The notes beneath the pieces were generated by a model. The model saw only the letters and a program-made list of their open reading frames with translations. It did not search any database and was not told the origin of the DNA. The position numbers and the translations under genes were made by a program. From an uncultured Gammaproteobacteria bacterium (GTDB lineage: Bacteria; Patescibacteriota; Microgenomatia; UBA8517), in the NCBI GenBank assembly GCA_964540475.1, contig CAZIMC010000002.1, forward strand, positions 177,551-217,748: DNA of 40,198 bases. The letters are read 5' to 3'. Of the stretch, positions 6,251 to 16,607 are shown in pieces (the stretch's first letter is position 1; the number at the start of each line of letters is the position of its first letter).

Positions 6251-8203
6251 TTAGGAAGATAATTTTCCTCCGAATTTGCTTTCGATGGCTTTTAAAATCT
6301 TATTTCTTGTATTTGCAACCTCGGTATCTGTAAGAGTTTTTGTTGGATGTTGATACCAAATTCGGAAAGTGTAATTACTATTAAACGTGTCTTTAAGTTC
6401 TACATTTTTTACAAGCTTGCTCACTTTTGAAATTTCACCCAATACCCCTCCTATGCGTGTTTTAGGAGGGAGAATCAAAGTTATATCCTCGATTTGTGGC
6501 GGATATTTTGGTATTGGAACAAACTTAGCAATCGGGCTATGTAAAGTTCTTAATTTTTGTACATCAAATTCGTAATATAAAAGGCCATTATTTTCCAGGA
6601 CTCCCAATTCTCCTATTACATTAGTGGAATGTGCAAAAACAATCCTTTGGGAGGGTAGGTAGTTTTTAGAGTCTACCGGCTTTACTTCATAATTTACCCG
6701 GAGCTCCTTCAGTAGCCCCTCAACAAATCCTTTTGCTATGCGGTAGTCATAATTTGCCAGTATTCCACCCAGCTTCATACATTCCTCGGGAGTATCATTT
6801 TTGCGAGGGATGTATACATTGGCAATTTCAAACAGATGAAATGGCTCTTTTATGTGCGAATTGTCATTTGCCGCTTGAGTAAGCGAAGGCATTAGCGAGG
6901 TTCTTAAATATTGAAAATCGGAGCCTAATGGGTTTTTAAGTTTCAAAGCACTTCCCTCGACATCTTTTTCAGCAACAAGCGACAGTGTAAAAATTTCTGT
7001 GGCCCCGAAACCCTTTAGAGTGGATTTAATTTTCATTTCAAATTCAAATGGTGAGTCAGCAGGAAAATCCGGAAGACTCCCTGTCATAAGTTTTGATGGC
7101 AATCTGTGGTAGCCGTAGATTCTTGCAACTTCTTCAACCAAATCTTCCGGTATATTAATGTCTCGTGCTCTCCATGAGGGAACCTTTACATTTATAGTAT
7201 TTTTCTTTCTTTGAACCCCAAACCCCAAACTGGTTAAAATGCTGTCAATTTCTTGCTCAGCAATTTCAACACCCAATATCTTGTTAATAAAATCATTTGA
7301 AATACTAACCGCTTTTGGTTTGTAAGGTGAAGGATGAATATCAAGAATTTGCTTTTCAGCTTTACCTTTTGTTAACTCTTCAATAAGCTTGATACCCCGA
7401 AGTATGGTGGGAGTTACTGCTTCTGTATCTAATCCTTTTTCGAATAGCTCCGAAGCTAAAGTCCTATGTGCTAAAGTCATCGAGGTTTGCCTAATTCTTA
7501 CCGGATTGTAGGTTTGGACAAACAGTAAAACATTCTTAGTATTTGTATCAACTGCTGAGTTAGCACAACCCATTATTCCTGCTAAGTCGATCAATTTTCC
7601 TGAACCATCTTCTATGACAATGTCTCCCCCAGAAAGCTTGTGAGTTTTTCCATCGAGCGTCGTAACAACCTCCCCTTTATTCGATTCGCGTAAAATCATT
7701 TTTGCTCCCTGAATCTTGTCATAATCAAATGTGTGCACTGGTTGCCCTAGTTCGTGCATTAAGTAATTTGAAATATCAACAACATTGTTTATTGCCCGTT
7801 CTCCCACAAGTTCAAGTCTTTCTCCAAGCCACTTTGGAGACGAGGTAACATTAACATCATTAATTAACACAGCCGCAAATCGACCACAGAGATTCGTATC
7901 AACCCGAGCTTTGAGATATGGCACTTTTTGGGTAAATTTGGAAGGTTTTATGTTAAGCTTGTTTAAGGTAGCCTTAACACCGAATCGTGGCAGGATAACT
8001 GAAGCCTCTCTTGCAATCCCATATACGGAGGCTGTATCCACTCTATTTGTTGTAACTTCGATCGTATACAAATAATCATTACCTGACTTAGCCACCTTTT
8101 CAACAGACGGCCCACATAATGATAAGCATTCAGCAATTTTAGAGGGCTTAGCGTCAGTCTTTAAAAACTCCCTAAGCCATTTGTCTGATATTAAAATGTC
8201 CAT
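6251..8203 (-). CDS. pheT: phenylalanine--tRNA ligase beta subunit (short form lacking the tRNA-binding OB insert)
   Basis: IEVTTNRVD, NNVVDISNY, VPSWRARDI..EDLVEEVARIYGY, LRTSL, C-terminal ferredoxin-fold anticodon domain. Confidence 0.95.
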   Translation of the reverse strand: MDILISDKWLREFLKTDAKPSKIAECLSLCGPSVEKVAKSGNDYLYTIEVTTNRVDTASVYGIAREASVILPRFGVKATLNKLNIKPSKFTQKVPYLKARVDTNLCGRFAAVLINDVNVTSSPKWLGERLELVGERAINNVVDISNYLMHELGQPVHTFDYDKIQGAKMILRESNKGEVVTTLDGKTHKLSGGDIVIEDGSGKLIDLAGIMGCANSAVDTNTKNVLLFVQTYNPVRIRQTSMTLAHRTLASELFEKGLDTEAVTPTILRGIKLIEELTKGKAEKQILDIHPSPYKPKAVSISNDFINKILGVEIAEQEIDSILTSLGFGVQRKKNTINVKVPSWRARDINIPEDLVEEVARIYGYHRLPSKLMTGSLPDFPADSPFEFEMKIKSTLKGFGATEIFTLSLVAEKDVEGSALKLKNPLGSDFQYLRTSLMPSLTQAANDNSHIKEPFHLFEIANVYIPRKNDTPEECMKLGGILANYDYRIAKGFVEGLLKELRVNYEVKPVDSKNYLPSQRIVFAHSTNVIGELGVLENNGLLYYEFDVQKLRTLHSPIAKFVPIPKYPPQIEDITLILPPKTRIGGVLGEISKVSKLVKNVELKDTFNSNYTFRIWYQHPTKTLTDTEVANTRNKILKAIESKFGGKLSS

Positions 8204-8204
8204 T

Positions 8205-9230
8205 TTAGAATTGATTTAAAAACCTAAGATCCGTACTGTATAAAAGCCTAAGATCAGGTATTTTAAGACCAGATTTCATCATCATTACTCTTTCAACTCC
8301 GATACCAAAAGCAAAACCAGAGTTTTTGGTGGGGTCGAATCCGCCATTTTTAAGTACAACCGGGTGAACCATGCCGGCTCCCCCAAGTTCCAGCCAACCT
8401 TCCTTGCAAACCTTACAACCTGTGCCACTACAAATATCACAGGTTATATCAACTTCAAATGATGGCTCTGTAAACTGAAAGTGATATGGGCGCAGTCTGG
8501 TTTTCCTTTCCTGCCCAAAAAATTGCCCAGCAAAGTGATCGATAACACCCTTTAAATGAACAATCGATATATTTTCATCAACAACCAAGCCTTCAAACTG
8601 ATGAAACATTTGAGTGTGGGAAGCATCCGATTGTCGCCTATAACACTTGGCGATATTCATCATCCTAATTGGAGGCCTACCAACCCTTTTCATTTCTCTT
8701 ACTTGACCTGATGAAGTGTGAGGTGTGAGGACCATTTTACCCAATTTTGGGTGTGGAGGAACGTCGACAAAAAAGGTCTCCCATTCGTCTCTTGCAGGAT
8801 GCCCTTTAGGCATATTGAGTGACTCAAAGGGGTACCAATCCCACTCAACTTCCGGATATCTAACCCTAACAAATCCTATTTTTTCAAAAACTGATGAAAT
8901 TTCTTGAATTGCAGTGGTTAATAAATGAAGATGACCTTGTGGTGGCTTAATGCCAGGAATTGTTGGGTCAAACCAGCTTCTAGCATTTTCCTGGAAGCTT
9001 AATTTTTTTGAAGCAATTTCAGAAAGAAGTGTGTTTTTTGCTTCGTTTAATGTAATTCCAACTCGTTTTTTTTCCTCGCTACCCAAACCTCTGATGTCTT
9101 TTATGAGCTTTGTAAACTTTCCGCTTTTACCAAGGTATGCAATCCTAATTCTTTCCAACTCTTCCTTATCCCCAGCCTCCATAATTTGCGCCAGGGCCTC
9201 ATTTTTTATATTGTTAACTTCTTCCTGCAT
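8205..9230 (-). CDS. pheS: phenylalanine--tRNA ligase alpha subunit
   Basis: HPARDEWETF, LTPHTS, FHQFEGL, RPYHFQFTEPSFE, GFAFGIGVER; start at ATG 9230. Confidence 0.97.
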   Translation of the reverse strand: MQEEVNNIKNEALAQIMEAGDKEELERIRIAYLGKSGKFTKLIKDIRGLGSEEKKRVGITLNEAKNTLLSEIASKKLSFQENARSWFDPTIPGIKPPQGHLHLLTTAIQEISSVFEKIGFVRVRYPEVEWDWYPFESLNMPKGHPARDEWETFFVDVPPHPKLGKMVLTPHTSSGQVREMKRVGRPPIRMMNIAKCYRRQSDASHTQMFHQFEGLVVDENISIVHLKGVIDHFAGQFFGQERKTRLRPYHFQFTEPSFEVDITCDICSGTGCKVCKEGWLELGGAGMVHPVVLKNGGFDPTKNSGFAFGIGVERVMMMKSGLKIPDLRLLYSTDLRFLNQF

Positions 9231-9239
9231 GTTTTGTAA

Positions 9240-9266
9240 CAAAAAAAGCTCTCTGGTGGAGAGCTT
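9240..9266 (-). terminator. attenuator terminator upstream of pheS
   Basis: Minus strand AAGCTCTC-CACCA-GAGAGCTT followed by a T run. Confidence 0.9.
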
Positions 9267-9294
9267 GCTTATAAATTAATATACCCCCACCAGC

Positions 9295-9339
9295 TTAATT
9301 GATTCTAAAGCAAAAGCCGCTGAAGGAAAAGGTTTTCAT
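9295..9339 (-). CDS. Phe-rich leader peptide of the pheST attenuator (pheM-like), MKTFSFSGFCFRIN
   Basis: 14 codons, 4 Phe; ATG overlaps the rplT stop (ATGA); followed by antiterminator strand CTGGTGGGGG and a terminator; same position as E. coli pheM. Confidence 0.85.
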   Translation of the reverse strand: MKTFSFSGFCFRIN

Positions 9340-9677
9340 TGCTTGGTTGACTCAACAATTTTTTTGAATGTTTCTTTATCGGTTGCTGCAATATCAGAGA
9401 GTATTTTCCTGTCAAGCTCGATATTGGCCCTTTTTAATGCGGCTATAAATTTGCTGTAGGAATAACCATTCTCGCGAACTGCGGCATTAAGACGCATTAT
9501 CCAGGTAGCCCTTAAATCTCTTTTTCTAAGCTTCCTTCCTGCATAGGCATATTGGCCTGCGTGCAAAACCGCCTCTTTGGCGGTTCTAATGCGTCTGCTT
9601 CTGGACTGCTTAAAGCCCTTAGCCTTTGCTAAGATTTTTCTATGTTTTCTTGCTGCTGGTGATTTTACTCTTGCCAT
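9336..9677 (-). CDS. rplT: 50S ribosomal protein L20
   Basis: MARVK..., AGQYAYAGRKLRKRDLRATWIMRLNAA, LDRKILSDIA. Confidence 0.98.
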   Translation of the reverse strand: MARVKSPAARKHRKILAKAKGFKQSRSRRIRTAKEAVLHAGQYAYAGRKLRKRDLRATWIMRLNAAVRENGYSYSKFIAALKRANIELDRKILSDIAATDKETFKKIVESTKQ

Positions 9678-9712: not shown

Positions 9713-9913
9713 TCAGGACGGTCTTCCGACCAGCTTTCTAATCTTTTTAGCCATTGAACCCTTCATTCTGATCGTCTTTTTAAGGTTTGTTAAGCGTTTG
9801 GAACTTTTGCTTGCTTTTAAATGGCGCCTAAAGCCCTGCCTACGCATGACCTTACCAGTTTTGGTGATTTTAAATCTGTTTGAAATTGACTTTTTAGTTT
9901 TTTGTTTTGGCAT
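9713..9913 (-). CDS. rpmI: 50S ribosomal protein L35
   Basis: [22 protein letters not shown]; between infC and rplT. Confidence 0.97.
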
Positions 9914-9953
9914 ATATTAGTTACTTAAATTAAAGAGCAGAAGAGTGAAAGTA

Positions 9954-10535
9954 TCATTCGTTTTCTTTAGTTTCACTACCTCCGCTTGTCTGATCAGCGC
10001 GTTGGTCAGACTGAACTACCTTTTTATTCGTTGGCGATATGACCATCATTAAATGTTTGCCTAAAAACTTAGGCTCCATATCAACGACTATTGTTTCACC
10101 CAACTCTTCAACAATCCTTTTTAGTAAATTGTATCCAAATTGCTTGCTACCCATTTGTGGTCCCCGGAAAACGACCACAAGCCGAACCTTGTCTTTATCA
10201 CTTAAAAATTCTTTAACCCTGTTAAGTCGCGTATTATAGTCATTTTGGGCAATAAAGGGAGAAAACCTGACTTCTTTCAGTTCTCCACCCTTACTTTTAG
10301 AACTCTTCTTAAGCTTTTTTTCTTCCTGGTATCTAAATTTTCCGAAATCGACTATTTTTGCAACAGGTGGCTTAGCATTTGGGGCAATTTCGACAAGTGT
10401 TAAGCCTTCCTTTTGTGCCAGGTCTAGCGCCTCTTGGCGCTTAAGTATTCCCAGCTGTTTGCCATCGGCTCCTATAACCCGGAGCTCCGGTGCTTGTATT
10501 CTAAAATCGATTTTCCAGTAAAGATTGTTTCGCAA
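9954..10535 (-). CDS. infC: translation initiation factor IF-3
   Basis: IQAPELRVIG, LVEIAPNAKPPVAKIVDFGKFRY, KEVRFSP; TTG start; candidate promoter TTGTTT-17-TAAAAT upstream. Confidence 0.96.
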   Translation of the reverse strand: MRNNLYWKIDFRIQAPELRVIGADGKQLGILKRQEALDLAQKEGLTLVEIAPNAKPPVAKIVDFGKFRYQEEKKLKKSSKSKGGELKEVRFSPFIAQNDYNTRLNRVKEFLSDKDKVRLVVVFRGPQMGSKQFGYNLLKRIVEELGETIVVDMEPKFLGKHLMMVISPTNKKVVQSDQRADQTSGGSETKENE

Positions 10536-10582
10536 CTTATCAGTTTGATTTTACCACGTGCCTAGAGCTTAAACAAGATTGA

Positions 10583-12322
10583 TTAGAGTTCAAGGGATTT
10601 TTCGCTGATTTTTGCGACCATCCTCGCTTTGAAGTTTTCAAGTGAAATTTGTCCCAAGTCTTCACTGTTTCTTAATCTCACACTTAAACCATTACTTTCC
10701 ACTTCTTTGTCGCCAACAATTATCATATATGGGACCTTTTCCATCTGAGCATCGCGGATTTTGGCGCCAAGCGTTTCGCTTCGTGCGTCAACTTCTACTC
10801 TTATATTCTCTTTCATTAATTCGCTCACAACGGAGTTTGCATATTCCAAATTCTTCTCAGAGATAGGTAGAATTTTAGCCTGAACCGGAGCAAGCCAGAC
10901 AGGAAACGCCCCAGCAAAGTGCTCGGTTATTATACCAATAAAACGTTCTAAAGACCCGTAAACTACTCTATGTATTACTACCGGGGTTTTCTCAGATCCG
11001 TCTTCTGCAGCATATTTCAGTTTGAATCGCGCAGGAATCTGAAAGTCTAGCTGCAATGTCCCCATCTGCCAGTCGCGTCCAAGTGAATCTTTCATCAAGA
11101 TGTCAATTTTTGGACCGTAAAACGCGCCATCTCCTTCTAAAACAAAATACTCTTTACCTGATTTTTTTAGTATTTCTTTCAGTTCTTTTTCAGCCTTATC
11201 CCAAAGTTTGGGGTCTCCCATGAAATCTGATGGTCTTGTACCTAACCTGAAGCTGTATTTAAGACCAAAAATAGAATAAAATTTTTCAGTTATTTCAAAC
11301 AGTTGTTCAAACTCTGGTGCTATTTGTTCTTCGGTTACAAACAAATGCGCATCATCTTGCCGGAACTCCCGGATTCTTAACAATCCATTTAAAGTACCTG
11401 ATTTTTCGAATCGATGCAGTGTGTCTGTGTCGCCCAAACGAAGGGGCAGATCTCTATATGACCTGGTTTTAGAGTCGAACACTATCATTGCGTTAGGGCA
11501 ATTCATAGGCTTTAGTGCATAAGTTTCCCCCTCCTCCGTTTCGCTAATGAACATATTTTCTTTATAATGGTCCCAGTGCCCTGAAATTTCATATAATTCC
11601 TGTTTGTTTATTAATGGAGATACAATTTCCTGATAACCATATTGTTTATGCTCCTCACGCCAGAAACCAACCAGCTCGTTGTATAAAACAACTCCTTTTG
11701 GAAGCCAATATGCCATACCTGGCGCCGTATGATGAAAAATAAAGAGTTCTAATTCTTGTCCTAACCTTTTATGATTTCTTTTTTCTGCCTCCTCTTGCAT
11801 TTTAAGATAATGGTCTAGCTCTTCCTGCGTTGGGAAAACCGTTCCGTAGATTCTAGTGAGCATTTTATTTTTCTCGCTTCCCCGCCAGTAAGCTCCTGCA
11901 ATAGACAATAATTTAAAGTGTCTTAATTCTTCTGAGGGTTTTTCTACATGTCCACCACGGCATAAGTCCCAGTAATCACCTGATTTATAAAAAGTTAACG
12001 TTTGTCCATCGCCTGAAAATTCATCTATTAATTCATGCTTAAACTCATTATCAGGATATTCCTCTTTTGCTTTCGCGGAGTCAAGCTCGTGTCTTTCAAA
12101 GCTTTTCCAGGAAGGAAGAATTTTTTGCATTTCTTTTTCAATTTTGGAAAGATCATTGTCTGAAATTTTTATATCACCAAAATCAAAGTCAAAATAAAAG
12201 CCGTTTTCGATAGCAGGCCCAATTGTGCGCTTTGTATTAGGCCACAAATTCATAACAGCAGCTGCCAAAAGGTGTGCCGCCGAGTGTCTTAGGTTAACTA
12301 GATAATCTTTATCGTTTTTCAT
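10583..12322 (-). CDS. thrS: threonine--tRNA ligase (lacks N-terminal TGS domain)
   Basis: LRHSAAHLLA, DLCRGGHV, KPMNCP, LRIREFRQDDAH, GAFYGPKID, HRVVYGSLERF. Confidence 0.98.
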   Translation of the reverse strand: MKNDKDYLVNLRHSAAHLLAAAVMNLWPNTKRTIGPAIENGFYFDFDFGDIKISDNDLSKIEKEMQKILPSWKSFERHELDSAKAKEEYPDNEFKHELIDEFSGDGQTLTFYKSGDYWDLCRGGHVEKPSEELRHFKLLSIAGAYWRGSEKNKMLTRIYGTVFPTQEELDHYLKMQEEAEKRNHKRLGQELELFIFHHTAPGMAYWLPKGVVLYNELVGFWREEHKQYGYQEIVSPLINKQELYEISGHWDHYKENMFISETEEGETYALKPMNCPNAMIVFDSKTRSYRDLPLRLGDTDTLHRFEKSGTLNGLLRIREFRQDDAHLFVTEEQIAPEFEQLFEITEKFYSIFGLKYSFRLGTRPSDFMGDPKLWDKAEKELKEILKKSGKEYFVLEGDGAFYGPKIDILMKDSLGRDWQMGTLQLDFQIPARFKLKYAAEDGSEKTPVVIHRVVYGSLERFIGIITEHFAGAFPVWLAPVQAKILPISEKNLEYANSVVSELMKENIRVEVDARSETLGAKIRDAQMEKVPYMIIVGDKEVESNGLSVRLRNSEDLGQISLENFKARMVAKISEKSLEL

Positions 12323-12328
12323 CTTTGT

Positions 12329-12475
12329 TTAAATTTTTTTCACTCTTTTATTTAATGCTGCCATGACAGATTCCACTTTGCACTTAACTGCGGCTACATA
12401 TCTAGCGCTTTTGTTAGGATCTTTGACAAAATCCTTCGCCGCCTCTGTAACTGATAATTCTCGTTCTGTTTGCAT
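12329..12475 (-). CDS. 48-aa orphan protein between the T-box leader and thrS
   Basis: MQTERELSVTEAAKDFVKDPNKSARYVAAVKCKVESVMAALNKRVKKI; GGAG 6 nt before ATG; stop 6 nt before thrS. Confidence 0.6.
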   Translation of the reverse strand: MQTERELSVTEAAKDFVKDPNKSARYVAAVKCKVESVMAALNKRVKKI

Positions 12476-12488
12476 CTTATACTCCAAC

Positions 12489-12621
12489 AAAAAAGCGCCC
12501 GATACTTGTGGGAACCCGCTACGCGGATGGTTCCATCCCACTTTCTTGGACACTTGCTTCTCTATACTTCGCAATAGACGCGTACAACTAGTAGTTGGTG
12601 AATCTACGTCGTGGCTGCAAT
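12489..12621 (-). promoter_or_regulatory. compact T-box riboswitch-like leader of the thrS operon
   Basis: Antiterminator GTGGGA-[TGGAACC bulge]-ATCCGC-GTA-GCGGGT-TCCCAC (12508-12541) has T-box geometry; overlaps imperfect terminator AGCG..CCC/GGG-CGCT-TTTTTT. Confidence 0.8.
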
Positions 12622-12627
12622 TAATTT

Positions 12628-12657
12628 ATTATACGGCTGATTTTAATGCGTTGTCAA
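12628..12657 (-). promoter_or_regulatory. sigma70-type promoter for T-box/thrS
   Basis: TTGACA (12657-12652), 18 nt, TATAAT (12633-12628). Confidence 0.85.
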
Positions 12658-15640: not shown

Positions 15641-15838
15641 TTATTTTTCAGTAGACGGTGGATCTTCTAAAACACCCTCAATTGCGCTATTTAGATCAAT
15701 TCTGTGCGCCTCTAACACTTCCTGATCAGTAAGTCCAGCAACATTTATGCCTTTTCTGTCCAAGGCCAATGCAGCTCTGACAACATCTGCTCTACCCTTC
15801 CAGGGCGATCCGCCGTTACAAGATGATTCTATACTCAT
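15641..15838 (-). CDS. 65-aa orphan protein downstream of the Phe-type attenuator
   Basis: Strong SD AAAGGAGGTGA before ATG; acidic C-terminus; no motif recognised. Confidence 0.75.
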   Translation of the reverse strand: MSIESSCNGGSPWKGRADVVRAALALDRKGINVAGLTDQEVLEAHRIDLNSAIEGVLEDPPSTEK

Positions 15839-15865
15839 AAATTAAACTCACCTCCTTTCACCAAC

Positions 15866-15889
15866 AAAAAACCCCGATTTTATCGGGGT
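15866..15889 (-). terminator. attenuator terminator
   Basis: ACCCCGAT-AAA-ATCGGGGT followed by TTTTT. Confidence 0.9.
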
Positions 15890-15934
15890 ATGTTGCTAAA
15901 ATTAATTTTTTATAAACGCAACTTTACCCCCTGT

Positions 15935-15982
15935 TTAGGAGGTAAAGTAAAATCCAAAAAGGATATTGTTAGTTGCGTTCAT
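15935..15982 (-). CDS. Phe-rich leader peptide MNATNNILFGFYFTS, apparently leaderless
   Basis: 15 codons; F-G-F-Y-F cluster; ATG 7 nt after the -10 box; part of a four-segment attenuator. Confidence 0.8.
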   Translation of the reverse strand: MNATNNILFGFYFTS

Positions 15983-15989
15983 TTTACCT

Positions 15990-16018
15990 ATTTTATTTTT
16001 ATTATATTAGCTTGTCAA
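15990..16018 (-). promoter_or_regulatory. sigma70-type promoter
   Basis: TTGACA (16018-16013), 17 nt, TAAAAT (15995-15990). Confidence 0.8.
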
Positions 16019-16205: not shown

Positions 16206-16427
16206 TCACCCCATTCTCTCGATTCCAGCTAGTGAATAATTGCGTCCTGGATTCCTAATTTCACCTTCAGCACCAACAGACCAACCACATCCGTTACAAT
16301 GTGTTTCTAGCACATATGTTTCACCATGATTTCCTTTAAAGGAAATTTCATATGCCGAGCTGTTATTTATTCCCTGACTTTCGCAATTAGGACAAGCTCC
16401 TACTTTTTTTGCTTTACTTCCTGCCAT
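16206..16427 (-). CDS. 73-aa putative zinc-ribbon protein
   Basis: CPNC ... HCNGCG (two CxxC pairs); first gene after the Ile-type attenuator. Confidence 0.7.
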   Translation of the reverse strand: MAGSKAKKVGACPNCESQGINNSSAYEISFKGNHGETYVLETHCNGCGWSVGAEGEIRNPGRNYSLAGIERMG

Positions 16428-16446
16428 ATTTTTGTTTTATAAAACT

Positions 16447-16472
16447 AAAAAAACCTCTCTGGTGAGAGGTTT
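16447..16472 (-). terminator. attenuator terminator
   Basis: AAACCTCTC-ACCA-GAGAGGTTT followed by TTTT. Confidence 0.9.
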
Positions 16473-16511
16473 AGAATTGTTTATTTGATTAAATTGGTTA
16501 TTCTCTCACCA

Positions 16512-16571
16512 TTAAGCGCTAACCCCAATAAAGAGGTTAATGCTAATAATGAGTGAAAGATTTCTTATCAT
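16512..16571 (-). CDS. Ile-rich leader peptide MIRNLSLIISINLFIGVSA, apparently leaderless
   Basis: 19 codons, 5 Ile + 3 Leu + 1 Val; ATG 6 nt after the -10 box; followed by antiterminator strand TGGTGAGAG. Confidence 0.8.
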   Translation of the reverse strand: MIRNLSLIISINLFIGVSA

Positions 16572-16577
16572 ATATAT

Positions 16578-16607
16578 ATTTTAGTTTCTAGCAGTTGTTT
16601 TTGTCAA
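16578..16607 (-). promoter_or_regulatory. sigma70-type promoter
   Basis: TTGACA (16607-16602), 18 nt, TAAAAT (16583-16578). Confidence 0.8.

What the first reader, a model, noticed from the sequence alone, without database searches (positions are those of the whole stretch)
9240..9339. pheM-type leader peptide translationally coupled to rplT
Seen: MKTFSFSGFCFRIN starts inside the rplT stop (ATGA). It is followed by CTGGTGGGGG, which can pair with CTCTCCACCAG of the terminator 5' arm or with the upstream TCCTTCAGC. Established: E. coli has thrS-infC-rpmI-rplT-pheM-pheS-pheT with this attenuator. Inference: the same logic operates in a probable CPR lineage, with leader translation supplied by ribosomes finishing L20, linking PheRS output to ribosomal-protein operon flux.
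Basis: partly seen in the sequence, partly recalled or inferred. Interest (0 to 1): 0.7.

Follow-up and report, generated by a model that had tools for sequence, protein, structure and literature searches.

The report
Phenylalanine leader-peptide attenuator before pheST
Between the ribosomal protein gene rplT and the phenylalanyl-tRNA synthetase genes of this Woesebacteria-like (CPR) bacterium lies a 14-codon, phenylalanine-rich mini-gene followed by a switchable terminator; this is the classic E. coli way of sensing charged tRNA-Phe, here compacted so that the mini-gene starts inside the rplT stop codon.

Summary
On the minus strand, ATG 9339 overlaps the rplT TGA. It opens MKTFSFSGFCFRIN* (4 Phe), whose stop abuts GCTGGTGGGGG. 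That segment can pair either with leader codons 5-9 or with the 5' arm and loop of the terminator at 9266-9246, which is followed by 7 T. pheS starts 10 nt after the T-run.

Constraint folding gives the three classical attenuator states. In 86 non-redundant Patescibacteria rplT-pheS junctions, 28 carry an ATG sORF with at least 3 Phe followed by a terminator. Dinucleotide shuffles give 2.6 ± 1.5 against the 28 of 34 testable loci observed. Terminators elsewhere in the same loci give 4%. No other amino acid behaves like this.

Six loci share the window's terminator. They keep the 13-14 aa leader, Phe at positions 9 and 11, the stop-to-region-2 spacing, and the antiterminator, which includes one compensatory U-A to C-G change.

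The coupling to rplT is supported indirectly. Leaders that start within 4 nt of the rplT stop lack a promoter (8 of 9). Leaders that start 10 nt or more downstream sit on near-consensus promoters as leaderless ORFs.

The element is not a member of Rfam Phe_leader (16 bits; E. coli control 75 bits). No expression data exist. I call it a new variant of a known mechanism in a phylum where I found none described.

The parts
9336..9677 (-). rplT (ribosomal protein L20, 113 aa). Its TGA stop at 9338..9336 overlaps the leader ATG.
   Evidence: ORF list. tblastn finds L20 in relatives. Pfam PF00453 is recorded on the orthologues.
9295..9339 (-). Leader ORF MKTFSFSGFCFRIN* (14 aa, 4 Phe at codons 4, 6, 9 and 11), with ATGA overlap onto the rplT stop.
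   Evidence: One search gives the translation. One search gives P=0.0026 for >=4 Phe. Homologous leaders appear in L081, L088, L170, L174, L172 and L124.
9314..9326 (-). Region 1 (CCUUCAGCGGCUU, leader codons 5-9). It pairs with region 2 and so acts as the anti-antiterminator.
   Evidence: Minimum-free-energy fold. Duplex of -16.4 kcal/mol, P 0.012 against shuffles.
9284..9296 (-). Region 2 (AAGCUGGUGGGGG). It starts inside the leader stop codon and pairs with either region 1 or region 3.
   Evidence: The distance from stop codon to region 2 is 0-1 nt in all seven related leaders.
9253..9263 (-). Region 3 (CUCUCCACCAG: part of the terminator 5' arm, the loop, and the first base of the 3' arm). 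It pairs with region 2 to form the antiterminator.
   Evidence: masked-leader fold -15.7 kcal/mol. (P 0.0055). Compensatory CUGG/CCAG to CCGG/CCGG change in L088.
9241..9266 (-). Intrinsic terminator: stem AAGCUCUC/GAGAGCUU, loop CACCA, seven U (9247..9241).
   Evidence: scan. folds. The AGCTCTCCAC core is shared by 6 other fetched loci, 5 of them non-redundant.
8205..9230 (-). pheS (341 aa), the regulated gene. Its ATG lies 10 nt after the U-run and has no Shine-Dalgarno sequence.
   Evidence: PF01409/PF02912; best relatives are Woesebacteria/Patescibacteria at 75% identity..
6251..8203 (-). pheT (650 aa), the second regulated gene. A terminator-like hairpin follows it at 6271..6254.
   Evidence: Pfam B3_4/B5/FDX-ACB on the orthologues.
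9713..12322 (-). Upstream genes of the same transcription unit: thrS (12322..10583), infC (10535..9954) and rpmI (9913..9713). No terminator-like site separates them from rplT.
   Evidence: A consensus promoter lies at 12657..12628.

Best explanation
This is a ribosome-mediated (leader-peptide) transcription attenuator that adjusts pheS-pheT expression to the supply of charged tRNA-Phe.

Shown by sequence and computation:
- A 14-codon ORF has Phe at codons 4, 6, 9 and 11.
- Three mutually exclusive helices exist: 1:2, 2:3 and 3:4.
- Helix 3:4 is a hairpin followed by seven U.
- The leader stop codon directly abuts region 2.

Inferred mechanism:
- With ample Phe-tRNA, the ribosome runs to the leader stop and covers region 2. 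The terminator 3:4 forms and most transcripts end at about 9241-9247, before pheS.
- With no leader translation, 1:2 and 3:4 form and transcription also terminates.
- With scarce Phe-tRNA, the ribosome stalls on a Phe codon. It covers region 1 but leaves region 2 free. Helix 2:3 forms, RNA polymerase reads through, and more PheRS is made.
- The U-run ends only 10 nt before the pheS AUG in an organism without Shine-Dalgarno sequences. The antiterminated form therefore also leaves the pheS start region single-stranded and U-rich, which may add a translational component.
- The leader has no promoter or Shine-Dalgarno sequence of its own, and its AUG overlaps the rplT UGA. It is therefore most likely translated by ribosomes that terminate on rplT and reinitiate. 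That would make this an internal-operon attenuator fed by L20 translation.
For: Anatomy and coordinates.

Three-state folding: the free RNA forms 1:2 plus the terminator. Masking the leader gives 2:3 (-15.7 kcal/mol against -10.8 for the terminator). Masking through the stop codon plus 13 nt gives the terminator only. L081, L088 and L172 behave the same way.

Window-only shuffle tests: P 0.0026 for Phe content, 0.0055 for 2:3, 0.012 for 1:2.

Comparative evidence:
- 28 of 34 junctions with a terminator and at least 45 nt upstream carry an ATG sORF with >=3 Phe. Shuffles give 2.56 +/- 1.48 (maximum 7), the antisense strand gives 0, and the next amino acids are A at 8 and T at 7.
- 28 of 51 terminators in the rplT-pheS spacer have such a sORF, against 15 of 356 elsewhere in the same loci.

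Same-class relatives (WIN, L081/83, L088, L170, L174, L172):
- The leader is 13-14 aa.
- Phe 9 and Phe 11 are invariant. Phe 4 is kept in all but the shorter L081 leader, through TTT/TTC changes, and Phe 6 in all but L081 (where it is ACC).
- The stop codon sits 0-1 nt before region 2.
- The 12-18 nt spacer is not conserved.
- Helix 2:3 scores -13 to -21 kcal/mol and includes one fully compensatory pair (L088) and several G-C/G-U/A-U switches.

Coupling:
- No promoter-like site precedes the leader.
- Only 1 of 24 genes in the window has a Shine-Dalgarno sequence.
- 8 of 9 leaders starting at -4 to +4 nt from the rplT stop lack a nearby promoter. 14 of 22 leaders starting at +10 nt or more have a >=9/12 promoter whose -10 ends 4-9 nt before the ATG; three more have it with a TATAAA -10 that the script's filter rejected (visible).
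- ATGA overlaps are an established substrate for termination-reinitiation coupling (PMC6728339).
Against: - There are no transcript or ribosome data. The only public runs holding this sequence are low-depth DNA contigs.
- The element is patchy. The closest PheS relative (L173, 75% identity) and several others (L161, L084, L165, L169, L171, L082) have no leader or terminator, so it is dispensable.
- Only six sequences belong to the window's class, with one fully compensatory pair. L170 has a mismatch in 2:3, and there the terminator stays the minimum-free-energy fold even with the leader masked.
- The whole-region fold z-score is not significant (-1.65).
- The ribosome footprint sizes used for the geometry come from E. 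coli.
- Transcription-translation coupling and intrinsic termination have not been shown in Patescibacteria.
- Reinitiation at the ATGA is inferred, not shown.
Confidence: 0.8

Rival explanations
1. This is an ordinary, constitutive (partial) terminator that ends or tapers the thrS-infC-rpmI-rplT unit and sets the ratio of ribosomal-protein mRNA to pheST mRNA. The sORF and the complementary segment are by-products of a T-rich spacer.
For: 19 of 86 related junctions have a terminator without any Phe-rich sORF. The window's overall fold is not exceptional (z -1.65). The element is dispensable in close relatives.
Against: Phe-rich sORFs occur about 11 times more often than in shuffles and about 13 times more often than at other terminators in the same loci. 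The antisense strand has none. Leader length, Phe positions and stop-to-region-2 spacing are conserved while the spacer is not. The terminator loop co-varies with region 2 (L088), which a plain terminator does not require.
Confidence: 0.05
2. The switch acts mainly on translation of pheS rather than on transcription. The hairpin and U-run lie within about 30 nt of the pheS AUG and occlude the ribosome landing site unless a ribosome stalled in the leader frees region 2 to open the hairpin. This would be translational attenuation of the ermC type.
For: The U-run ends 2-10 nt before the pheS ATG in the window, L081, L088 and L170. The organism lacks Shine-Dalgarno sequences, so an open U-rich start region should matter. 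L124 keeps the leader and region 2 but has no terminator, and region 2 abuts the pheS ATG.
Against: The hairpin followed by 5-7 U is a canonical intrinsic terminator and is conserved as such. In L172, L163, L085, L086 and L168 the same kind of attenuator is followed by another gene or a long spacer, not by the pheS start. The L124 fold is not significant (z -0.59). The two mechanisms are not exclusive.
Confidence: 0.1
3. The sORF encodes a functional hydrophobic micropeptide, and its position next to a terminator is incidental.
For: ORF length and several residues (F.F..F.F[RT][IL]) are conserved among seven relatives.
Against: Across leader classes only the Phe richness and the position before a terminator are shared. 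Examples are MQVPT..AFFFFA..FFAFVTS and ..KFFSFTFS. The conserved nucleotides coincide with the pairing partners of region 2. The peptide has no signal or membrane-span length.
Confidence: 0.03
4. A trans-factor riboregulator controls the terminator: a T-box sensing tRNA-Phe, an L20-binding leader, or another riboswitch.
For: pheS is T-box-regulated in Firmicutes, and L20 autoregulates its operon in E. coli and Bacillus (established knowledge).
Against: No Rfam family reaches its gathering score in the window or in 40 related loci. At E<=10 the only relevant hit in 9100-9500 is Phe_leader at 16 bits. Only 38 nt separate the leader stop from the terminator, which is far too short for a T-box.
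Confidence: 0.02

Closest known systems
E. coli pheM-pheST attenuator (Rfam RF01859 Phe_leader)
   Same: Same regulated genes and the same chromosomal slot (thrS-infC-rpmI-rplT-leader-pheS-pheT). The leader is also 14 aa and Phe-rich ([14 protein letters not shown]). Both have an intrinsic terminator and alternative hairpins.
   Different: E. coli pheM starts 122 nt after the rplT stop, behind the rplT terminator and its own promoter, and pheS starts about 210 nt after the attenuator. In the window the leader ATG overlaps the rplT stop, no terminator or promoter intervenes, and pheS starts 10 nt after the U-run. There is no sequence or structure homology: 16.1 bits against a 55-bit cutoff, while the E. 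coli control scores 75 bits. The Phe codons are spread out (4, 6, 9, 11) rather than in a run.
Classical amino-acid operon attenuators (trpL, hisL, leuL, thrL, pheL) of Proteobacteria, and the predicted trpS/leuS attenuators of Streptomyces
   Same: Three-state 1:2 / 2:3 / 3:4 logic. The regulatory codons lie in or just before region 1. The leader stop is placed so that a terminating ribosome masks region 2.
   Different: Those leaders sit at the 5' end of a transcript and are translated by de novo initiation. This one lies inside a polycistronic unit. At 99 nt from ATG to the end of the U-run it is also among the shortest. Their taxonomic range as described is Proteobacteria, Actinobacteria and some Firmicutes (PMC2965389, PMC1262725); I found no description for Patescibacteria.
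T-box leaders of pheS in Firmicutes
   Same: Same regulated gene, same signal (tRNA-Phe charging) and same output (terminator versus antiterminator).
   Different: T-boxes bind uncharged tRNA directly, are about 200 nt long, and need no leader translation. None is detected here.
Translational coupling by termination-reinitiation at ATGA overlaps (PMC6728339, PMC10666635)
   Same: The 4-nt stop/start overlap of rplT and the leader is the canonical coupled arrangement.
   Different: The known cases couple two protein-coding genes, often subunits of a complex. Here the downstream ORF would be a regulatory leader, so coupling would gate an attenuator. This is untested.

Membership tests
Ribosome-mediated (leader-peptide) transcription attenuator | Short ORF upstream of the regulated gene, enriched in codons of the cognate amino acid | tested here: met
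   4 Phe in 14 codons. P 0.0026 against shuffles. The enrichment is specific to Phe and to this junction in relatives.
Ribosome-mediated (leader-peptide) transcription attenuator | Intrinsic terminator between the leader ORF and the structural gene | tested here: met
   8-bp stem with 4 G-C pairs, 5-nt loop, 7 U, at 9266..9241.
Ribosome-mediated (leader-peptide) transcription attenuator | Mutually exclusive helices 1:2, 2:3 (antiterminator) and 3:4 (terminator) | tested here: met
   Constraint folding. Duplex energies against shuffles. The helices are kept in 5 of 6 class members, with one compensatory pair.
Ribosome-mediated (leader-peptide) transcription attenuator | Geometry: a ribosome at the leader stop masks region 2, and a ribosome on the regulatory codons masks region 1 but not region 2 | tested here: met
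   The stop TAA overlaps the first bases of region 2. The Phe codons lie 12-35 nt upstream of region 2. The 0-1 nt stop-to-region-2 spacing is conserved. The footprint size is assumed from E. coli.
Ribosome-mediated (leader-peptide) transcription attenuator | The leader is translated, and read-through responds to charged-tRNA supply | not testable with these tools
   No RNA runs hold this sequence. This needs Term-seq or ribosome profiling, or an in vitro system.
Rfam RF01859 Phe_leader (E. coli pheM/pheL type) | Covariance-model score at or above the 55-bit gathering threshold | tested here: not met
   The window scores 16.1 bits, E 4.3, and only the terminator half aligns. None of 20 related leader-bearing loci scores. 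The E. coli pheM control scores 75 bits.
Orthologue of E. coli pheM locus architecture | Leader between rplT and pheS, with its own promoter downstream of an rplT terminator | tested here: not met
   The position is met. The own promoter and rplT terminator are absent in the window. Some relatives do have a promoter.
T-box riboswitch | Match to the T-box model (specifier loop, T-box sequence) in a leader of about 200 nt | tested here: not met
   No T-box hit at the gathering threshold in the window or 40 loci, nor at E<=10 in 9100-9500. Only 93 nt separate the rplT stop from the nominal TTG start of pheS.
L20 autoregulatory leader (RF00558) | Match to the L20_leader model upstream of infC/rpmI/rplT | tested here: not met
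   No hit in the window at the gathering threshold.
Termination-reinitiation coupled gene pair | Stop/start overlap of -4 or -1 nt on the same strand | tested here: met
   ATGA at 9339..9336. The same overlap occurs in L081/83, L170, L174 and L124.
Termination-reinitiation coupled gene pair | Downstream translation depends on upstream translation | not testable with these tools
   Only indirect evidence exists: no promoter or Shine-Dalgarno sequence here, and a dichotomy among relatives.

The most novel reading that the evidence does not exclude
Patescibacteria, which generally cannot make their own amino acids, use classical leader-peptide attenuation as a routine regulatory device, and they have rebuilt the pheST attenuator in several architectures. 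In the window's form the leader has no initiation signals of its own and is translated only by ribosomes reinitiating after L20. PheRS synthesis would then be gated jointly by ribosomal-protein translation flux and by tRNA-Phe charging. In sister lineages the same junction carries a promoter whose transcript starts at the leader AUG, giving a leaderless leader peptide whose 5' end pairs with region 2. Two further promoter-leader-terminator modules in the same 40 kb (15.9 kb and 16.5 kb) would belong to the same regulatory repertoire.
Probability: 0.35. Interest if true: 0.65.

Novelty: new variant of a known kind. Interest (0 to 1): 0.5.

Why it matters
Gene regulation in the Candidate Phyla Radiation is almost unexplored, because these organisms are rarely cultured. 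This result gives a concrete cis-regulatory mechanism that can be predicted from sequence alone. It implies several things about these reduced-genome bacteria:
- transcription and translation are coupled closely enough for attenuation to work;
- intrinsic terminators are in use;
- charged tRNA-Phe is monitored to set PheRS levels.

The compact version overlapping the rplT stop would be an unusual case in which translational coupling feeds an attenuator inside an operon. The promoter-fed leaderless versions in relatives form a natural comparison set. The conserved leaders also give annotation pipelines a handle for a class of unannotated sORFs. The core mechanism itself has been textbook knowledge since the 1980s, which limits the surprise.

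Tried and rejected
- **Rfam**, at gathering threshold on the window and 40 related loci, and at E<=10 on 9100-9500: only tRNAs and a sub-threshold Phe_leader hit that aligns the terminator alone. The element is therefore not a member of RF01859, T-box or L20_leader.
- **Public reads**: the runs found are DNA or of unrecorded type, three of them holding 15-20% of the sampled words. They gave three short contigs identical to the window, with no RNA and no variants.
- **MAFFT alignment of the six same-class sequences (A2)**: it misplaces region 2 and the 3' arm. I did not use it for the count of structure pairs and tabulated the helices per sequence instead.
- **First terminator detector**: it let the stem run into the U-tract and missed many class B terminators. 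I corrected it.
- **Own promoter for the leader inside rplT**: the best candidate scores 7/12 and lies 81 nt upstream. Rejected.
- **Loci where pheS is not preceded by rplT**: none has a Phe-rich sORF with a terminator, apart from truncated class B contigs.
- **L124 (leader without terminator)**: the fold is not significant.
- **The 5' UTR before thrS**: the fold is not significant.
- **Pfam on small ORFs downstream of the other leader-like modules**: nothing above threshold.
- **Literature**: five full-text searches (three on the question itself) found no description of leader-peptide attenuation in CPR/Patescibacteria. The library does not include most subscription journals. The broad survey by Lopatovskaya et al. 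2010 (pmid 20198868) could not be read, but it predates CPR genomes.

Full report
**Anatomy**

All relevant genes are on the minus strand: thrS (12322..10583), infC (10535..9954), rpmI (9913..9713), rplT (9677..9336), a 105-nt spacer, pheS (ATG 9230..8205) and pheT (8203..6251). This is the E. coli gene order, which I checked on MG1655. PheS identifies the organism as a Woesebacteria-like member of Patescibacteria. The best relatives share 75% identity, and the few named ones are labelled Candidatus Woesebacteria or Patescibacteria group.

The spacer reads as follows:
- The leader ATG at 9339..9337 shares TG with the rplT stop TGA at 9338..9336.
- The ORF is ATG AAA ACC TTT TCC TTC AGC GGC TTT TGC TTT AGA ATC AAT TAA, encoding MKTFSFSGFCFRIN.
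- The stop codon runs directly into AAGCTGGTGGGGG (region 2, 9296..9284).
- An A/T-rich 17-nt spacer follows.
- Next comes the hairpin AAGCTCTC-CACCA-GAGAGCTT (9266..9246) with seven T (9247..9241). This is the only terminator-like site inside the thrS-to-pheT unit.
- The pheS ATG lies 10 nt further on.

The plus strand here holds only spurious ORFs antisense to pheS and rplT. The hairpin is not followed by T on that strand.

**Is it more than chance?**

For the window alone:
- An ATG sORF of 8-30 aa with at least 4 Phe appears in 13 of 5000 dinucleotide shuffles of the 79 nt before the terminator.
- The duplex between the post-leader segment and the terminator 5' arm plus loop is -17.3 kcal/mol, against -9.4 ± 2.3 in shuffles (0.55% reach it).
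- The duplex between the leader and region 2 is -16.4 kcal/mol, against -10.2 ± 2.3 (1.2%).

Free folding gives 1:2 plus the terminator. Masking the leader, to imitate a ribosome stalled inside it, makes the 2:3 antiterminator the best fold (-15.7 against -10.8 kcal/mol for the terminator). Masking through the stop codon plus 13 nt leaves only the terminator. I assume E. coli footprint sizes, with the 3' edge about 15 nt from the first P-site base. On that assumption, a ribosome with any of the four Phe codons in its A site covers region 1 and leaves the region 2 core free. A ribosome at the stop codon covers region 2. This is the classical attenuator geometry.

**Relatives**

I fetched 160 loci with a PheS alignment or protein and 14 more by exact protein look-up. 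rplT directly precedes pheS on the same strand in 86 non-redundant Patescibacteria loci. These divide as follows:

| Junction type | Loci |
|---|---|
| Spacer under 40 nt | 16 |
| Neither leader nor terminator | 18 |
| Terminator only | 19 |
| Phe-rich sORF, no detected terminator | 5 |
| ATG sORF (8-30 aa, ≥3 Phe) with a terminator hairpin within 110 nt | 28 |

Controls:
- Among the 34 loci with a terminator and at least 45 nt before it, 28 have such a sORF, against 2.56 ± 1.48 (maximum 7) in 200 dinucleotide shuffles. The antisense strand gives 0.
- The same count for other amino acids is at most 8 (Ala) and 7 (Thr), and those come from one conserved peptide class.
- Terminator-like hairpins elsewhere in the same loci have a ≥3-Phe sORF in 15 of 356 cases, against 28 of 51 in the rplT-pheS spacer.
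- Loci where pheS is not preceded by rplT lack the element.

The sequences are related, so these counts are not independent events. However, the leaders fall into several classes with unrelated nucleotide sequences.

**The window's own class**

Five other non-redundant loci share the terminator core AGCTCTCCAC: L081/L083, L088, L170, L174 and L172, at 72-75% PheS identity. Their leaders are:

| Locus | Leader peptide |
|---|---|
| L081/L083 | MIFKSTSFSFRIK |
| L088 | MKFFFFTSFFFTID |
| L170 | (MTV)MKNFTFTGFSFTLS |
| L174 | (MTA)MKNFTFAGFSFTLS |
| L172 | MTHFTFASFYFRIK |
| L124 (60% PheS identity, no terminator) | MNSYFFATFFFRMK |

Conserved features:
- A 14-aa ORF; it is 13 aa in L081, and L170 and L174 also have an in-frame ATG three codons upstream that overlaps the rplT stop.
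- Phe at positions 9 and 11 is invariant.
- Phe at positions 4 and 6 is nearly invariant and is maintained through TTT/TTC changes.
- The stop codon lies 0-1 nt before CTGGTGG.
- Region 2:3 complementarity is kept (-13 to -21 kcal/mol).

The 12-18 nt spacer between region 2 and the terminator is not conserved.

L088 carries a double change, CTGG to CCGG in region 2 and CCAG to CCGG in the terminator loop. This preserves the antiterminator and is irrelevant to the terminator stem. Other differences are G-U/A-U or G-C/G-U switches. L170 has one mismatch, and its sister L174 has none.

The element is patchy. L173 (the closest PheS), L161, L084, L165, L169, L171 and L082 have no leader.

**How the leader is translated**

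The window has no promoter-like site near the leader. Only 1 of 24 genes in the window has a GGAG/GAGG/AGGA motif upstream, so the lack of a Shine-Dalgarno sequence before the leader says nothing.

Across leader-bearing relatives there are two modes:
- When the leader ATG lies -4 to +4 nt from the rplT stop (9 loci, 5 of them with ATGA), 8 have no nearby promoter.
- When it lies 10 nt or more downstream (22 loci), 14 have a ≥9/12 match to TTGACA-N16-18-TATAAT whose -10 ends 4-9 nt before the ATG. Three more have the same arrangement with a TATAAA -10. This implies a leaderless leader mRNA.

It remains inference.

**Comparison with the known**

E. coli pheM ([14 protein letters not shown]) is also 14 aa. 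It starts 122 nt after rplT, behind the rplT terminator and its own promoter, and pheS starts about 210 nt after the attenuator. Rfam Phe_leader scores 75 bits on E. coli but 16.1 bits on the window, below the 55-bit cutoff, and scores nothing on 20 related leader-bearing loci.

The element therefore works like pheM and occupies the same slot, but it is not a detectable member of that family. Descent from a common ancestor and convergence cannot be told apart here.

Published surveys place leader-peptide attenuation in Proteobacteria, Actinobacteria and some Firmicutes (PMC2965389, PMC1262725). My searches found no description for CPR/Patescibacteria.

**Verdict**

- The mechanism is a classical Phe-tRNA-sensing attenuator of pheST (confidence about 0.8).
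- Leader translation probably depends on rplT translation (about 0.55).
- There may be an added translational effect on the nearby pheS start.
- It is a new variant of a well-known mechanism in a poorly studied phylum. It is useful and testable, but not a conceptual surprise.

Noticed in passing
window 16018..15641 (minus strand): A second Phe-type leader module. TTGACA-17-TAAAAT is followed 7 nt later by ATG 15982, encoding MNATNNILFGFYFTS*. Its 5' end and ACCUCCU pair with downstream AGGGGGU..AGUUGCGUU. Next come the terminator ACCCCGATAAAATCGGGGT with T5 (15889..15871), a strong AAAGGAGGTGA Shine-Dalgarno sequence, and a 65-aa ORF with no Pfam match (15838..15641). The leader ending (..TS*, ACCTCCTAA) and the strong-SD small ORF resemble the cassettes that sit between rplT and pheS in L163, L085 and L086. 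The antiterminator is weak in the fold.
   Followed up: partly
window 16606..16206 (minus strand): A third module. TTGACA-17-TAAAAT is followed by ATG 16571, encoding MIRNLSLIISINLFIGVSA* (5 Ile, 3 Leu, 1 Val). TGGTGAGAG is complementary both to the leader and to the terminator CCTCTCACCAGAGAGG with T7 (16469..16454). That terminator closely resembles the pheST one (GCTCTCCACCAGAGAGC). Downstream lie a 73-aa Cys-rich ORF (weak zinc-ribbon hits only) and a 64-aa ORF. It looks like a branched-chain-type attenuator before genes of unknown function.
   Followed up: partly
L100/L139, L102, L107, L109, L113, L114, L115, L118, L121, L120, L125, L128, L129, L130, L133, L098, L105, L108 (rplT-pheS spacer): A second, larger class of pheS leaders (MQVPTxT...AFFFFA) with a near-consensus promoter. 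In several loci its -35 box overlaps the rplT stop codon, and its -10 ends 4-8 nt before the ATG. The first 15 nt of the leader, AUG included, pair with GGUUGGnUUUUGCAU after the leader. Pair 9:83 co-varies (UA 7, AU 4, GU 4). The adjacent GGGGAG can pair with the terminator 5' arm. Region 1 therefore sits at the start codon, not at the Phe codons. How a ribosome stalled 40 nt downstream opens it (steric exclusion or a trailing ribosome) is unexplained.
   Followed up: partly
L167 (1918-2000), L097, L155: Junctions with a terminator and an upstream copy of its 3' arm directly after the rplT stop, but no leader ORF. The last rplT codons (for example ACCTCCAAAGAATAA in L167) are complementary to that copy, so the rplT 3' end itself would act as region 1. 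This could be a degenerate attenuator or one read out by L20 translation alone.
   Followed up: no
L124 820-880: The leader MNSYFFATFFFRMK overlaps the rplT stop (ATGA) and keeps region 2 (GCTGGTGGG), but there is no terminator and region 2 abuts the pheS ATG. It may be a purely translational version. The predicted fold is not significant.
   Followed up: partly
L168, L172, L163, L085, L086/L087 (between attenuator and pheS): Extra genes are inserted downstream of the Phe attenuator and upstream of pheS: an M20 peptidase (L168), a 269-aa ORF (L172), and small Cys-containing ORFs with strong Shine-Dalgarno sequences. The L163 and L086 products share CLQxxxGSCxGC. An amino-acid-releasing peptidase under a Phe sensor would make physiological sense.
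   Followed up: no
window, whole: Only 1 of 24 long ORFs has a Shine-Dalgarno-like motif. Several have a TACAAT/TATAAT-like hexamer a few nt before the ATG, which suggests frequent leaderless or very short-leader mRNAs. The rare strong Shine-Dalgarno sequences seen (AAAGGAGGTGA) precede small ORFs that follow attenuator-like modules.
   Followed up: partly
window 12657..12323 (minus strand): A perfect TTGACA-18-TATAAT promoter (12657..12628) is followed by a 5' region of about 150 nt containing a T-run, then a 48-aa ORF (ATG 12474, no Pfam match) immediately before thrS. There is no Rfam hit, and the fold z-score is -1.44.
   Followed up: partly
L001, L002, L004, L005, L007, L010, L020, L029-L032, L036, L080 (record titles): Several GTDB-representative MAG records titled 'uncultured Gammaproteobacteria' or 'Pseudomonadales' carry PheS 50-64% identical to this Woesebacteria-like protein, with Patescibacteria-type rplT-pheS junctions. 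The record titles look like mislabels.
   Followed up: no
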